From the NCBI GenBank assembly GCA_000165345.1, contig CM000434.1:1-64000 (forward strand): 64,000 nt of DNA. Reading direction: 5' to 3'. Position numbers and translations under genes: made by a program. Positions 851-62,560 of this stretch are shown piece after piece. Within the stretch, counting starts at the first letter, position 1. Each line of letters begins with the position of its first letter. The notes under the pieces were generated by a model, which was not told where the DNA came from, did not search any database, and worked only from the letters and a program-made list of their open reading frames with translations.

Positions 851-860
851 TTGGCGCGCA
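851..860. promoter_or_regulatory. TTGGCGCGCA, an E2F-like GC element immediately internal to the telomere array
   Basis: A GC-rich 10-mer in an otherwise AT-rich junction. Same family as the GGCGCC palindromes upstream of most genes in this window. Confidence 0.4.
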
Positions 861-1173
861 TAGGATGAAAATAGATCTAAAAAATTGGTTTTTAAAAAAA
901 CGGAAAAAAAACAAATGAAGCTATTTTTTATACTGGCTTTCTTTTTAACAATTTGCCTAAAAATATGGAAAATCAAAGGAAATAGATTACAAATACCATT
1001 CAAAAAAAAAGATTGACAAAAGGGCTAAAATGGAAAAAAATAAAAGATGGCAAAAAAAATGAAAATGAAGAAACTTACGAAGATCAAATTTATAATACAG
1101 GGCCACTTCTCCTAGTCTCTATCATTGCAAGAACAAATATTATTTATCCTTATGTGGGGAACGCTAGCAATAA

Positions 1174-1872
1174 AAAAAATGTAAAGAAATAAAAAATGGT
1201 GGCTTTTATGCATATACTACAGAACTGGTTTATGTTGCACAAGTTGAATGTAAAAAAGATGTTATTATTCATGGAGAAAATGGAGAACTCAGCTTTGATT
1301 TTGAAGATAAAGAAATTTTTGTTAATACAGATATAATTGTTACAAGAAAAACTATTAAACATCCAAGCCATGTTAAAGTAACATCATACAAAGTTGGAGA
1401 AGTTCCATTGCATTGCCCAAGTGTAAATAACTTAAATACTGTACTAATTGATCGGAGCTTTGATGTAAAAATTGATCAAAAATACACCAAACATTTGGAA
1501 CTGGTTTTTATTGGAATTGTTAAAAAAACAACCCTTGAAATAGAATTCCCGCTTGTAGATGTCGAAACTGGAAGTATAAAAAATTATCAATTTGATGAAT
1601 TTTCTTATATTATTTATGAAGGAAGCCAAATTTTTACTTCAATCCCAATTCTAGGTGGAAATATCTGTGATATTAAGGTTTCTAGTACAATTAAATGTAG
1701 TCCAGGAAGCCCAATCAACTTTATTTATGAATTAGAAAACGGAAACTTAGTGAACAATCAAGTTAAAGTACTGACAATTGATCTGTTTGGAAAACATGTT
1801 TATCAAGATCAAAATCTAAATAAACTATTAGAACGTGTAAAAAAAGCGCTTATTGATGATAATGATCAATAA
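1174..1872 (+). CDS. Subtelomeric hypothetical protein ORF of 232 codons, open from the stop at 1171-1173, with no in-frame ATG (the track start at 1408 is a TTG). Either a gene remnant or a gene whose 5' exon was not found.
   Basis: Frame-1 translation from 1174 reads KKCKEIKNGGFYAYTTELVYVAQVECKKDVIIHGENGELSFDFEDKEIF...LHCPSVNNL..., continuous with the track ORF and non-low-complexity. A candidate signal-peptide mini-exon (MKLFFILAFFLTICLK, ATG at 915) lies upstream in a different frame, but no clean GT donor was found. Confidence 0.35.
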   Translation, partial: KKCKEIKNGGFYAYTTELVYVAQVECKKDVIIHGENGELSFDFEDKEIFVNTDIIVTRKTIKHPSHVKVTSYKVGEVPLHCPSVNNLNTVLIDRSFDVKIDQKYTKHLELVFIGIVKKTTLEIEFPLVDVETGSIKNYQFDEFSYIIYEGSQIFTSIPILGGNICDIKVSSTIKCSPGSPINFIYELENGNLVNNQVKVLTIDLFGKHVYQDQNLNKLLERVKKALIDDNDQ

Positions 1873-4800
1873 ATAATTATTAGGCTGAATTATGAGAATA
1901 TCAACCAATTTTAAAATTATTTTGAATAGGCCGTGCAAAGCTCAACTATACTATTTGATTTAGATATTTCCCGAAAAAAAATACTTAGAAAAACTTAAAT
2001 AACTTAAATTTATTGGCTATACTAATCTTTGAAGAAATCAAATTAACATTTAATTGGCAATATTTTACTGGGCTAATTTTGAATTAAAATTAAATTAATC
2101 ATGATTAGTTACAAAACTGTATTTAAACATGTCTAATATTTAAGTAATATTAAAACAATAATAAAAATAATTTGGAAATAGAAGGTTTCAGAATTTATTC
2201 AATACTAAATTAAGTTTATACTTATTTAATTTGATTTTATATTTGATATTATTAATATAAAATCAAAGAAACTTTAATACCTACATGTACAAATTATTTT
2301 TGGAATTTGTTAATTTTCAACTCATCAAAGTCTAACATTTAATATTTCTAAGTTGTAAGCTTTAAAGAAATTATTATTCATTAGTTTCAAATTGTTTAAG
2401 AAATATTCGATTTTAGTTGTATAGTCAACAAAATAAATATTAGATTTTAATCTGTTTGAAACAAATATAAAACCAGGCTTTAACCATTTAGTCACTTAAT
2501 GATGAGTTTATTTTTTAGTAATAGGTTTTTAATATAAAAACATGCCTTGTAACTACAAAGAAAATTTTTAAAATAATTTACAATATAACAATTTACTATC
2601 GAACTTAGAAAAATACAATCACTTATAATTTCTTCTTGATATTTAATTTATTGCCTTCTTAATTCATTATTTATTATTAAATAGATCAAAATGTGATTTG
2701 CTTCATTTCATTTCTAATTTGTAAAAATCAGCTTTAGAATATCATGAAAAATATAAAATACAAGAAAAAACATTTTCTACTCTTAATTTTTGTTTTAATG
2801 GTCCAAATTACCATAATCTAAATTAAAGTGAAAAAATTTATATAGACAAAAAAATAAAAGTATTGAATAGCAAAATATTCAATCCAATAATTTTAATAAA
2901 TTCTTTTAAAAACATAACAACTAAATATTATTAAGAGAATTAGTTGAAACATAATATATATGTTGTTTTTGTTGAATAAACAAATTACAAATTATATCTT
3001 TAGAATTATAAATTAATTTATTTGAAATTATAATTTAATTTTGAAAAAAAAGTATATGAATTTATAATTTCTAAGTATGAACTTGTCTTACAATATTTCA
3101 ATGAAAATAAACGCATGAGACAAATTTAATACCAAACCAATCATCTTTAAATACTATTTACTATTGCTCAAAAAGTAATCAAAATTGTCTTTGAATAAAG
3201 TAACTCCATTTATAACAATTAAACAAGATCATTCAATGATGAAACAAATTATTGGAAATATAATCTTTAAATGAATTTACTCTATAAATTTATGCTTGAA
3301 ACTTTTTGTATAGAATATTTTTATAATAAATAAGAATTCATTTTGAAAAAAATAGAATTTTTTGTTTGAATAATAATTATTAATATTAATTCGAGTTAGT
3401 ATATTAGATCGCTTTAAATTATTAACTTTATTGTTTAACAAAAAATCTGAAAGTTTTAATTAAATTATTTTGTAGAACTTTAAATTCCCATGCAATATTG
3501 TACGGATTGTGGAATATATTCAATTATTTTTTCTTTTATCCAAATATTACAAAAAAAAAAAAGCTGATTTTTAGTCATTTTCTTAAATTTTACTTTTTAG
3601 AGAGAAATCTTAAATAAATAAAATGCATTTTGTAACTTATAGAAATAATTGTATTTATTATTCTACGAGGGTAAATAACTTTTAAAAAAAAATCATTTAA
3701 TAAATGTATGTTGTAGAAATACTGATTCCTGTAATTGTGAATTGAATTATATATTTACAAATAGTTTTTGAATTATTTGCTGAACTTCTAAAATGTATAA
3801 GTGAAAATTTTTTTTAAAGAATTCTCAAAATTACAAAATATTTAATAACTTTAAGATTTGATAACTATTATTAAAGAGTCAAATAGTATAGTATCAATTT
3901 AAGTACTTCATATAATAATTGCATGATATTGTTATATTTATATCAATTACAAGTTTTTTTTATTCGATACACCTAATTTTTTCTATTTATTAGAATTTTA
4001 GAGTACAAGACAACTTATAGTAAAATTATGCAGATATTTTACAAATAAACAATTGAAACCTAGATTATGTGAATAAAATTGATTAATTAGCAAAAAAAAG
4101 GTTATTCAAGAATAATTTAATTTTTCAAATTAATATTTAACTATTTTTTATATGAATTCTTAAGTTAGGTTTATATCTAGTTGAAATTGAAGTTGTTATT
4201 AATGATACATGAATTATTGATCTTAGATTTGTGCAATGTCTAAATAATGAATATTCACATTATCATGTGATAAACAAAGTTGATTAAAAAAGTTATTATC
4301 TAATTTACCATCTTTATTATTCACTTACTTAAAGAAAATCTTTGCTTTTGATTAATATATCTAAAGTAATAGACTAGACTCGTGCAAAGAAAAATCAATC
4401 AGCCTATTTATACAAAAAGAGTTTCTAGACTGATAAAAATTATTTTAAATTAAATAGAAGGAATATTTATTATGATTAGCTTATAAATAATACAATTGAA
4501 AGATGTTTAAGTAGATAAATCCTGACAAAAAAAAAGAATTCTTATTCAAAAAAAAAGTCAAAAATCTGTTTATTAGAAATACTATTATAAAGAAAAGAAT
4601 TGTTGAAAATTCTTAATACTTTTGAAAATCATTAACATGCATATGCTGATAATTAATTTAATGTTAAAATACATATATTTTAATATTAAATTAATATTGA
4701 TTTTTGTATCTCGCAAAAGTTCAGAATTAAAGTTTGTTCAATTGTGTAATTACTTTAATTCCGTAAAAAGTATGTACAATATACAATTATCTGTATTAAT

Positions 4801-62000: not shown

Positions 62001-62248
62001 ATTAGTCCATTATTATTTCTCTCTTCTTCTATATTTGAATTATCTCCTGAATTATTATTATCAATCGAAAAATTTAGCATATCATTTACATCAATATAAA
62101 CAGTTTTTGTTAATCTGGATGATAATAATTGTTCAACTTGTCTCACATACTTAGGTATACCTTCTTCATTCTTAAATGTTCTTAGAAAGTGTAGAAATGA
62201 TCGCTCCAAAGCAGGAGGAAATGAATTAAATGTTACATTATTAGACAT
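59087..62248 (-). CDS. MCM6: DNA replication licensing factor MCM6 with a C-terminal acidic extension of about 300 aa, 1053 aa
   Basis: ATG at 62248 verified. Zn finger CFECEICGC...CPTKGC. Walker A [9 protein letters not shown]. The MCM box [46 protein letters not shown] and the SRFDLFF arginine finger are near-identical to the metazoan MCM6 block. Poly-Glu and poly-Asp tail. Confidence 0.85.
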   Translation of the reverse strand: [1053 protein letters not shown]

Positions 62249-62550
62249 CTTTTTCTATTTCCTTTCAGTTGAGGAGAAATAGCAGTAATAACAGAAAAAA
62301 AACAAGATTTCTTTTTGATCTTTCAATATTTTTCTCACTAAGCTTTGTTTTCACGTTTCTTCTAGTTTGATTTCCCACCTTTCTATTATTCAAATCTTTT
62401 TCTTTATGCTTTGATTCTCGAATTTATTTACAATATTTTTCGCAAGCTATTCTCACAATTATACCTATATGCACTAATACTTGCCTTTGCAAATATTTAT
62501 CTCAGCATTAATTTAAATTTAATTTATTTTACCGATACCTTTTTCCCCAC

Positions 62551-62560
62551 ATTTGGCGCC
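62551..62560. promoter_or_regulatory. TTTGGCGCCA in the MCM6/TatD divergent promoter (about 300 bp from each start)
   Basis: Direct reading. MCM genes are canonical E2F targets in other eukaryotes. Confidence 0.55.

What the first reader, a model, noticed from the sequence alone, without database searches (positions are those of the whole stretch)
851..62560. Palindromic E2F-like TTGGCGCCAA / GGCGG(G) element upstream of nearly every gene, as the only GC islands in the intergenic DNA
In roughly 20%-GC spacers the 8-12-bp GGCGCC-core palindrome recurs 70-450 bp 5' of most genes. Positions (some orphan half-sites not listed): 851, 6131, 9965, 10161, 13234, 17417, 24211, 25883, 31656/31688, 36758, 37167-37217, 40407, 42036 (tandem double), 46011, 47491, 57284, 62551. 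Several copies sit in divergent promoters where one copy could serve two genes (G-patch/Beclin at 57284, MCM6/TatD at 62551, malectin/PDI, NHE/NHE). By chance a specific GC-rich 10-mer should be essentially absent from 15 kb of AT-rich spacer. Targets include MCM6 and an HDAC, classic E2F/DP targets elsewhere. Regulation through this motif may be near-global in this compact genome.
Basis: partly seen in the sequence, partly recalled or inferred. Interest (0 to 1): 0.55.

Follow-up and report, generated by a model that had tools for sequence, protein, structure and literature searches.

The report
Known E2F-type promoter motif, Cryptosporidium parvum
The short GC-rich palindrome TTGGCGCCAA that recurs upstream of most genes in this window is real and conserved across Cryptosporidium species, but it is the E2F-like promoter motif already published for this parasite, on this same chromosome, since 2003.

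Summary
The window is the left end of Cryptosporidium parvum chromosome 6, from the telomere to MCM6/TatD. All 19 listed coordinates carry the stated sequence. GGCGCC occurs 10 times, all in spacers, against about 0.1-0.3 expected. GCGCCA, GGCGCC and GGCGCCAA are the top non-low-complexity words in the 23 kb of 22%-GC spacer. With half-sites (TGGCGS, GGCGGG) there are 21 spacer sites against 0.86 expected, while coding DNA sits at expectation. Twenty of the 21 lie 71-452 bp from a 5'-facing ATG, and none lies in a 3'-3' spacer. In two syntenic loci from six other Cryptosporidium species the core stays invariant while the surrounding spacer falls to 35-45% identity.

Two claims are overstated. 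Only 21 of 42 G/C runs in the spacers are this motif. Twenty-one of 26 genes have a site, and about 13 have a full palindrome.

The interpretation (E2F/DP site, near-global use) matches the literature: Bankier 2003, Oberstaller 2013/2014, and Xiao 2025, where it is the dominant motif in ATAC-seq peaks and bidirectional promoters. Binding by the parasite's E2F/DP proteins has still not been shown. The finding is real and biologically meaningful, but already known.

The parts
851..860 (.). TTGGCGCGCA, an E2F-like site 6 bp inside the last telomere repeat and about 370 bp upstream of the first subtelomeric ORF (1223-1872, +)
   Evidence: The junction is identical in three independent C. parvum assemblies. 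The gene call comes from L013.
6130..6139 (.). TTGGCGCCAT, full GGCGCC core, 81 bp upstream of orf211 (5418-6053, -)
9965..9972 (.). TTTGGCGC half-site, 70 bp upstream of IMPDH (8697-9899, -)
10161..10170 (.). TTGGCGCCAA, perfect 10-bp palindrome, 266 bp upstream of IMPDH
13235..13242 (.). ATGGCGGC half-site, 213 bp upstream of orf192 (12447-13025, -)
15758..15765 (.). It is conserved as GCGCCAA in C. meleagridis, 200 bp upstream of the orthologous gene.
17417..17426 (.). TTGGCGCCAG, full core, 394 bp upstream of orf1562 (17815-22503, +). The position is conserved in C. meleagridis (-386) and C. canis (-416); C. muris has GGCGCCAG at -201.
24211..24220 (.). TTGGCGCCAA, perfect palindrome, 281 bp upstream of the CAAX protease gene and 51 bp past the HDAC stop codon. 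It is conserved in C. meleagridis and C. ubiquitum, with variants in C. canis and C. bovis.
25883..25892 (.). TTGGCGCCCA, full core, 283 bp upstream of HDAC (24270-25604, -). GGCGCCA is invariant in C. meleagridis, C. ubiquitum and C. canis at -269 to -281; C. bovis has GGCGCTA.
31210..31217 (.). It is conserved in C. meleagridis and C. ubiquitum.
31665..31697 (.). Pair of half-sites, GGCCCGCCAC and TTTGGCGGT, 24 bp apart in the malectin|PDI divergent spacer, 247-270 bp upstream of PDI. The pair is conserved in C. meleagridis; C. canis has CCCGCCC plus TGGCGCCA here.
36759..36766 (.). GTGGCGGG half-site in the NHE|NHE divergent spacer, 428 bp upstream of NHE1
37167..37199 (.). TTGGCGGT and CCCGCCAT, an inverted pair of half-sites 158-183 bp upstream of NHE2
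40408..40416 (.). AGGCGGGAA half-site, 452 bp upstream of the GLTSCR-like ORF (40863-41747, +)
42036..42051 (.). CTGGCGCCGGCGCCAC, a tandem double palindrome 285 bp upstream of orf690 (42328-44400, +)
46011..46019 (.). GCCCCGCCT half-site, 34 bp past the orf333 stop codon and about 640 bp upstream of the longin exon of the synaptobrevin gene. This is the weakest member of the set.
47491..47502 (.). TTTGGCGCCAAA, perfect 12-bp palindrome in the orf333|PH divergent spacer. TGGCGCCA is retained in C. meleagridis, C. ubiquitum and C. ryanae (the C. canis locus starts downstream of this spacer).
57285..57296 (.). ATGGCGCCAAAA, the single site in the G-patch|Beclin divergent promoter (-338 / -174). 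TGGCGCCAAAACACGTA is invariant between C. parvum and C. canis. C. ryanae keeps a TGGCGCCA at a different position in the spacer.
62552..62562 (.). TTTGGCGCCAT, the single site in the MCM6|TatD divergent promoter, about 305 bp from both ATGs. TGGCGCCA is invariant in five species.
62463..62590 (.). Conserved non-coding block of about 125 bp around the MCM6|TatD site. It also holds a G-box (ccccac, i.e. GTGGGG on the minus strand) and ATGCAC, and is probably a composite promoter module.
   Evidence: Alignment A4 and conserved blocks. There is no Rfam hit and no RNA-fold signal.

Best explanation
These are binding sites for the parasite's E2F/DP winged-helix transcription factors and work as orientation-independent promoter elements. 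The consensus is T(T/G)TTGGCGCCAA(A), with half-site variants tTGGCGG(G/T)a. The symmetric GC core would be contacted by the two subunits of an E2F-DP heterodimer. In 22%-GC spacer DNA this core carries nearly all the information needed to mark a promoter. Typically one site, or one tight cluster, lies 70-450 bp upstream of the ATG, presumably inside the nucleosome-depleted region. In head-to-head gene pairs a single site serves both genes.

Shown here: the statistical excess, the restriction to 5'-facing spacers, the distance window, and purifying selection across the genus.

Taken from the literature: C. parvum encodes two E2F and two DP genes, and the motif dominates open-chromatin peaks.

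Inferred: that E2F/DP is the protein that binds, and that binding activates transcription.

Because the genes carrying the motif here are functionally mixed, and no Rb homologue is reported, it probably acts as a general promoter factor of early asexual stages rather than a cell-cycle switch.
For: Excess and restriction to spacers:
- Searches give 9 GGCGCC clusters against 0.08 expected in spacers, and 21 relaxed sites against 0.86.
- Coding DNA is at expectation.

Sequence:
- The logo equals the canonical E2F consensus TTTSGCGCSAAA / TTTGGCGGG (consensus as quoted in PMC3734150).

Promoter context:
- There are 0 sites in 4.8 kb of 3'-3' spacers (P about 0.008).
- Twenty of 21 sites lie within 452 bp of a 5'-facing ATG (P about 0.002 against uniform placement).
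- Single sites sit in the G-patch|Beclin, MCM6|TatD and orf333|PH divergent spacers.

Selection:
- In two syntenic loci the core is 100% identical where the rest of the spacer is 35-45% identical.
- Only 3% of spacer 8-mers are invariant between C. parvum and C. canis.
- C. ryanae (Beclin 37% identical at the protein level) and the 40-45%-GC C. canis both keep the sites.

Literature:
- It is the most over-represented upstream motif in C. parvum.
- It is the top motif in 888 regulatory ATAC-seq peaks.
- E2F/DP genes are present and expressed in early asexual stages.
- In the protein-binding-microarray survey, C. parvum AP2 domains bound TGCAT, CACACA and the G-box, and the E2F motif was set apart as a non-AP2 motif.
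Against: No experiment has shown that Cryptosporidium E2F/DP binds these sites or that mutating a site changes expression; the 2025 review says most regulatory components lack validation. I could not examine the E2F/DP proteins themselves, because they lie outside the window. Five of 26 genes have no site, and the MscS|LRR promoter instead carries conserved ATGCAT and AGACAAGACG blocks, so the element is not universal. The motif-bearing genes show no common function. Published expression clusters carrying the motif peak at every time point, which fits poorly with a simple single-regulator model. Distances are measured to ATGs, not to transcription start sites.
Confidence: 0.8

Rival explanations
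1. The palindrome is a promoter element, but it is read by a different DNA-binding protein (an ApiAP2, Myb or zinc-finger factor) rather than E2F/DP. The resemblance to the E2F consensus would then be coincidental.
For: Binding has never been shown. The motif occurs upstream of clusters peaking at all time points, whereas E2F/DP transcripts peak early. No Rb and few E2F cofactors are reported.
Against: The match covers the whole 12-bp E2F consensus including the T/A flanks, not only the core. The AP2 domains of C. parvum tested on protein-binding microarrays bind TGCAT, CACACA and the G-box, and the E2F motif is classed as non-AP2. Cryptosporidium is reported as the only apicomplexan genus that retains E2F/DP.
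Confidence: 0.1
2. The element works mainly on chromatin architecture rather than as a conventional activator site. It would act as a nucleosome-excluding or boundary element that separates transcription units, or possibly as a replication-origin mark, whatever protein binds it.
For: Some sites sit just past a stop codon, between tandem genes: HDAC stop +51, conserved at +20 to +56 in four species, and orf333 stop +34. One site abuts the telomere repeat. The motif marks ATAC-seq peaks and spacers inside polycistrons.
Against: No site occurs in any 3'-3' spacer, where a pure boundary element would be just as useful. Each stop-proximal site is also 280 bp or less upstream of the next gene's ATG in this compact genome, so a promoter role explains it. 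No origin or insulator data exist.
Confidence: 0.07
3. The recurrence is a compositional or chance effect, or a repeat or assembly artefact.
For: The motif is short, and half-sites such as GGCGG also occur in coding repeats (22399-22485).
Against: Observed counts are 25- to 400-fold above shuffle or Markov expectation. The flanks differ from site to site, so these are not copies of a repeat. The sites are present in independent assemblies and conserved across species.
Confidence: 0.01

Closest known systems
C. parvum 'E2F' over-represented upstream motif (Bankier et al. 2003 on chromosome 6; Oberstaller et al. 2013, motifs 3 and 4: [C/G]GCGC[G/C], TGGCGCCA, GGCGGG; Xiao et al. 2025 ATAC-seq)
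   Same: Same organism, same chromosome, same sequence, same upstream location, and the same suggestion that a few E2F factors carry a disproportionate share of regulation.
   Different: Nothing essential. This report adds a site-by-site map for the first 64 kb of chromosome 6. It also shows position-level conservation in C. meleagridis, C. ubiquitum, C. canis, C. bovis/C. ryanae and partly C. muris. I did not find that conservation in the papers I read; Mullapudi 2007 compared only C. hominis.
Canonical E2F/DP sites of animals and plants (TTTSSCGC; Arabidopsis TTTCCCGCC / TTTGGCGGG)
   Same: Identical consensus including the palindromic GC core and T/A flanks. Promoter-proximal and orientation-independent. 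Present at a classic target, MCM6.
   Different: Here the motif is spread over most promoters of unrelated genes rather than a cell-cycle regulon. No Rb-family partner is reported. The fully palindromic TGGCGCCA form dominates.
ApiAP2-bound promoter motifs of Apicomplexa (TGCATGCA, G-box G[T/C]GGGG)
   Same: Short conserved words in AT-rich spacers. They co-occur with the E2F-like sites here, for example GTGGGG and ATGCAC beside the MCM6 site and ATGCAT in the MscS|LRR spacer.
   Different: Different sequence and a different protein family. The E2F motif was not among the AP2-bound motifs.

Membership tests
Published C. parvum 'E2F' upstream motif family (Oberstaller 2013) | The sequence matches 5'-TGGCGCCA-3' / [C/G]GCGC[G/C] / GGCGGG | tested here: met
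   There are 11 SGCGCS cores and 5 GGCGGG/CCCGCC, all in spacers. The motif definition is from PMC3734150.
Published C. parvum 'E2F' upstream motif family (Oberstaller 2013) | Occurs in C. parvum upstream (non-coding) regions and is over-represented there | tested here: met
   The window is C. parvum chromosome 6. The excess is confined to spacers.
E2F/DP binding site (eukaryotic) | Consensus TTTSSCGC, often palindromic TTTSGCGCSAAA | tested here: met
   In the symmetrised half-site matrix, T is present at position -1 in 17 of 20 half-sites, at -2 in 12 of 20 and at -3 in 11 of 20, followed by an invariant GGC. Three sites are perfect TTGGCGCCAA.
E2F/DP binding site (eukaryotic) | Promoter-proximal and independent of orientation | tested here: met
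   Twenty of 21 sites lie 71-452 bp from a 5'-facing ATG, none lies in a 3'-3' spacer, and single sites are shared by divergent pairs. Transcription start sites are unknown here, so distances are to ATGs.
E2F/DP binding site (eukaryotic) | The genome encodes E2F and DP winged-helix proteins with the DNA-contacting residues | not tested
   The genes (cgd1_1560, cgd6_1430, cgd7_3650, cgd8_1850) lie outside the window. Their presence is taken from the literature. I did not inspect the recognition residues.
E2F/DP binding site (eukaryotic) | Physical occupancy by E2F/DP (EMSA, microarray, ChIP) | not testable with these tools
   No such experiment turned up in the papers searched. The review states that validation is lacking.
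E2F/DP binding site (eukaryotic) | Target set enriched for cell-cycle and DNA-replication genes | tested here: inconclusive
   MCM6 and HDAC carry sites. So do IMPDH, CAAX protease, PDI, malectin, two NHEs, Beclin, G-patch, TatD and several orphan ORFs. With 26 genes no enrichment test is possible.
E2F/DP binding site (eukaryotic) | Functional constraint: sites conserved among related species | tested here: met
ApiAP2 motifs (TGCATGCA, G-box, CACACA) | The sequence matches an AP2-bound word | tested here: not met
   GGCGCC does not match any of these words. They occur separately in the same spacers. Microarray data are from PMC4117751.

The most novel reading that the evidence does not exclude
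The palindrome is not a stage or cell-cycle switch but the main promoter-defining element of the genus. One E2F/DP site would set the nucleosome-free region and drive transcription in both directions. Genes that lack a site of their own would be expressed as downstream members of co-directional, possibly polycistronic, units fed from the nearest upstream site. Candidates in this window are orf273 behind orf192, and orf1183 and orf457 behind G-patch. The absence of sites at these genes is itself conserved across four or five species. This arrangement would have been stable since before the split of the intestinal and C. ryanae/C. bovis lineages. Xiao et al. 2025 already point in this direction, so only the site-less-gene prediction and the genus-wide conservation would be new.
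Probability: 0.35. Interest if true: 0.45.

Novelty: already known. Interest (0 to 1): 0.2.

Why it matters
Cryptosporidium is a major cause of childhood diarrhoea, and its gene regulation is poorly understood. It is reported as the only apicomplexan genus that kept E2F/DP, and this motif is the best candidate for its main promoter code. The finding independently rediscovers that code from raw sequence, so it gives no new biology. The per-site map and the cross-species footprints do have practical use. They point to clean targets for reporter mutagenesis: single, invariant sites in the G-patch|Beclin and MCM6|TatD bidirectional promoters. They also offer natural negative controls: the MscS|LRR promoter and the site-less orf1183 and orf457.

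Tried and rejected
- **Chance or composition:** rejected by shuffles, a k-mer scan and Markov simulation.
- **Dispersed repeat:** rejected, because the flanks are unrelated from site to site.
- **Non-coding RNA in the conserved MCM6|TatD block:** no Rfam hit at gathering score or at E of 1 or less, no tRNA, and fold z-scores of -0.1 and -1.0. 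Rejected in favour of a regulatory module.
- **RNA or DNA hairpin formed by the palindrome itself:** dismissed by reasoning. An 8-12 bp palindrome with no loop cannot form a stable hairpin, and there is no strand bias.
- **'Only GC islands':** tested and not upheld.
- **Preference for the ATG-proximal end of a spacer in relative terms:** not significant (median test P = 0.41). Only the absolute limit of about 450 bp stands out.
- **Literature gaps:** Bankier 2003 (PMC403770) is not held, so its content is cited only through Oberstaller 2013 and the 2025 review. One search failed on the term 'CUT&RUN'. The DiCre paper mentions only the E2F gene promoter as a tool.
- **Not attempted:** I did not retrieve the E2F/DP proteins.
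- **Failed scripts:** one script failed on a file name and one timed out. Both were rerun successfully.

Full report
**What the window is**

Bases 1-845 are a noisy CCTAAA telomere array. The predicted proteins include IMPDH, a CAAX protease, an Rpd3-type HDAC, an MscS-like channel, an LRR protein, malectin, PDI, two Na/H exchangers, a synaptobrevin, a PH-domain protein, a G-patch protein, Beclin/Atg6, MCM6 and TatD. The HDAC, MCM6, IMPDH and orf690 sequences are exact matches to Cryptosporidium parvum proteins. They lie on 1.3-Mb chromosome records at the same distance from the end. The window is therefore the left end of C. parvum chromosome 6. Overall GC is 29%, with coding DNA at 33% and spacers at 22%.

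**Checking the observation**

| Test | Observed | Expected |
|---|---|---|
| GGCGCC, whole window | 10 | 0.30 |
| TTGGCGCCAA, at most 1 mismatch | 9 | 0.46 |
| GCGCCA in spacers | 20 | 0.45 |
| GGCGCC in spacers | 10 | 0.075 |
| GGCGCCAA in spacers | 11 | 0.027 |
| GGCGCC clusters, spacers (Markov) | 9 | 0.08 |
| Relaxed sites, spacers (Markov) | 21 | 0.86 |
| GGCGCC, coding (Markov) | 0 | 0.44 |
| Relaxed sites, coding (Markov) | 5 | 4.0 |

In the unbiased word count on the 23 kb of spacer, the three words above are the strongest outliers after A-runs and TA repeats. The relaxed definition is SGCGCS, TGGCGS or GGCGGG. The excess is real and confined to non-coding DNA.

**Anatomy of the sites**

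- The ten full sites give a symmetric logo, T(T/G)TT-GGCGCC-AA(A). Three are perfect TTGGCGCCAA, one is the 12-bp palindrome TTTGGCGCCAAA, and one is a tandem double.
- Eleven further sites are one-sided: tTGGCGG(G/T)a or TTTGGCGC.
- The flanks are otherwise unrelated, so these are not copies of a repeat.
- No site lies in any of the seven 3'-3' spacers (4.8 kb in total; P about 0.008).
- Twenty of 21 sites lie 71-452 bp from the nearest ATG facing the spacer (P about 0.002 against uniform placement in the same spacers).
- The exception, 46011, is a weak half-site. It sits about 640 bp upstream of the longin exon of the synaptobrevin gene.
- Single sites sit in the divergent G-patch|Beclin, MCM6|TatD and orf333|PH spacers. 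Small clusters sit in the malectin|PDI and NHE|NHE spacers.

- Only 21 of 42 pure G/C runs of 5 nt or more in the spacers belong to this motif. The rest include G-box-like GGGGG words and others.
- Twenty-one of 26 genes have a relaxed site in their 5' spacer, and about 13 have a full core.
- orf273, MscS, LRR, orf457 and orf1183 have none.
- In five species the MscS|LRR spacer also lacks the motif. It carries conserved ATGCAT and AGACAAGACG blocks instead.

**Conservation across species**

I fetched the syntenic HDAC locus from C. meleagridis, C. ubiquitum, C. canis, C. bovis and C. muris. I fetched the Beclin/MCM6 locus from C. meleagridis, C. ubiquitum, C. canis and C. ryanae.

| C. parvum site | State in other species |
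|---|---|
| HDAC, -283 | -278, -281 and -269 in the first three species; GGCGCT variant in C. bovis |
| Past the HDAC stop, upstream of CAAX | Kept at stop +20 to +56 in four species |
| orf1562 | Kept in C. meleagridis and C. canis; present at -201 in C. muris |
| orf333\|PH | TGGCGCCA in C. meleagridis, C. ubiquitum and C. ryanae (the C. canis locus starts downstream of this spacer) |
| G-patch\|Beclin | TGGCGCCA in all four other species; moved within the spacer in C. ryanae |
| MCM6\|TatD | TGGCGCCA in all four other species |

C. ryanae Beclin is only 37% identical to the C. parvum protein. In the alignments the core is 100% identical while the rest of the spacer is 35-45% identical. Only 3% of spacer 8-mers are invariant between C. 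parvum and the 40-45%-GC C. canis. The sites are under purifying selection. The G-patch|Beclin case in C. ryanae shows that presence in the spacer matters more than the exact position.

**What it is**

The logo is the canonical E2F/DP site, TTTSGCGCSAAA / TTTGGCGGG. The published record for this organism matches closely.

- The E2F motif was noted as over-represented in non-coding DNA of C. parvum chromosome 6 in 2003, as cited in PMC3734150.
- GGCG-core motifs were found upstream of glycolytic genes in 2007 (PMC1779779).
- E2F (TGGCGCCA, [C/G]GCGC[G/C], GGCGGG) was reported as the most over-represented upstream motif genome-wide in 2013. [quoted passage not shown]
- It lies upstream of 161 of 200 co-expression clusters and is not among the AP2-bound motifs (PMC4117751).
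- In 2025 it was the top motif in 888 regulatory ATAC-seq peaks, more than half of them bidirectional promoters, and in spacers within polycistrons.
- C. parvum has two E2F and two DP genes, expressed mainly in early asexual stages.
- The 2025 review states that experimental validation is still lacking.

**Most likely mechanism**

An E2F-DP heterodimer probably binds the symmetric GC core within the nucleosome-depleted region 70-450 bp upstream of the ATG. It would promote transcription in whichever direction or directions a gene lies.

- Shown here: the excess, the promoter context, the distance window and the selection.
- From the literature: the factors exist and the sites sit in open chromatin.
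- Inferred: the identity of the binding protein and the sign of the effect.

The mixed functions of the motif-bearing genes and the reported lack of Rb argue for a general promoter role rather than a cell-cycle regulon. The rivals cannot be excluded without binding data but are less likely. They are another factor reading the same word, or a mainly architectural or boundary role suggested by the stop-proximal and telomere-adjacent sites. Chance is excluded.

**Novelty and score**

The finding is correct but already known, on this very chromosome. The additions here are modest: a site-level map, evidence of genus-wide positional conservation, conserved absence at a few promoters, and a highly conserved composite module at the MCM6|TatD promoter. 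Interest is 0.2.

Noticed in passing
window 62463-62590: A block of about 125 bp in the MCM6|TatD spacer is almost invariant between C. parvum, C. meleagridis, C. ubiquitum and the much more GC-rich C. canis, and partly in C. ryanae. Besides TGGCGCCA it contains a G-box (GTGGGG on the minus strand) and ATGCAC. There is no Rfam hit and no fold signal, so it is probably a composite promoter module or 5' UTR rather than an RNA gene.
   Followed up: partly
window about 25855-25875 (L001 9728-9745): An inverted repeat, TTGACAAATTGTCA, lies about 10 bp from the HDAC E2F-like site. It is conserved in C. meleagridis, C. ubiquitum and C. canis (TTGACCCAATTGTCA) and may be a second factor site.
   Followed up: no
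window 28648-29221 (MscS|LRR divergent spacer): This promoter has no E2F-like site in any of five species. It carries the conserved blocks CCAGTAATGCATAAAGACCG and TAGACAAGACG; AGACAAGACG is invariant in five species. ATGCAT fits the known AP2_1 motif, while AGACAAGACG is unassigned.
   Followed up: partly
window 1-860: The telomere array CCTAAA is full of homopolymer-type irregularities. It ends 6 bp before an E2F-like TTGGCGCGCA. The junction sequence is identical in two NCBI assemblies and one short-read Logan assembly.
   Followed up: partly
window 1873-5417, 6054-8696, 15314-17814: Three unusually long (2.5-3.5 kb), 20%-GC stretches have no ORF of 120 aa or more and no called gene in the public annotations. 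This is atypical for a genome this compact. They may be subtelomeric non-coding DNA or unannotated transcripts.
   Followed up: no
window 50474-56951 and 10961-13025: The co-directional runs G-patch > orf1183 > orf457 and orf192 > orf273 each have an E2F-like site only ahead of the first gene. The absence of sites ahead of orf1183 and orf457 is shared by C. meleagridis, C. ubiquitum and C. ryanae. This would fit the polycistronic units described by Xiao et al. 2025, but it is untested here.
   Followed up: no
window 31266, 31733, 37016, 47858-47873: G-box-like words (AAGGGGGA, GTGAGGGGG twice, and GCCCCCACTGCCCCCCACT) recur in the same divergent spacers as the E2F-like sites. This is consistent with the published G-box family.
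   Followed up: no
window 14403-15551 and 1223-1872: Public annotations disagree on two subtelomeric gene models: 174, 323 or 382 aa for the first and 154 or 215 aa for the second. The window differs from two other assemblies by 15-20 mismatches and 17-51 gap openings in 19 kb.
   Followed up: no
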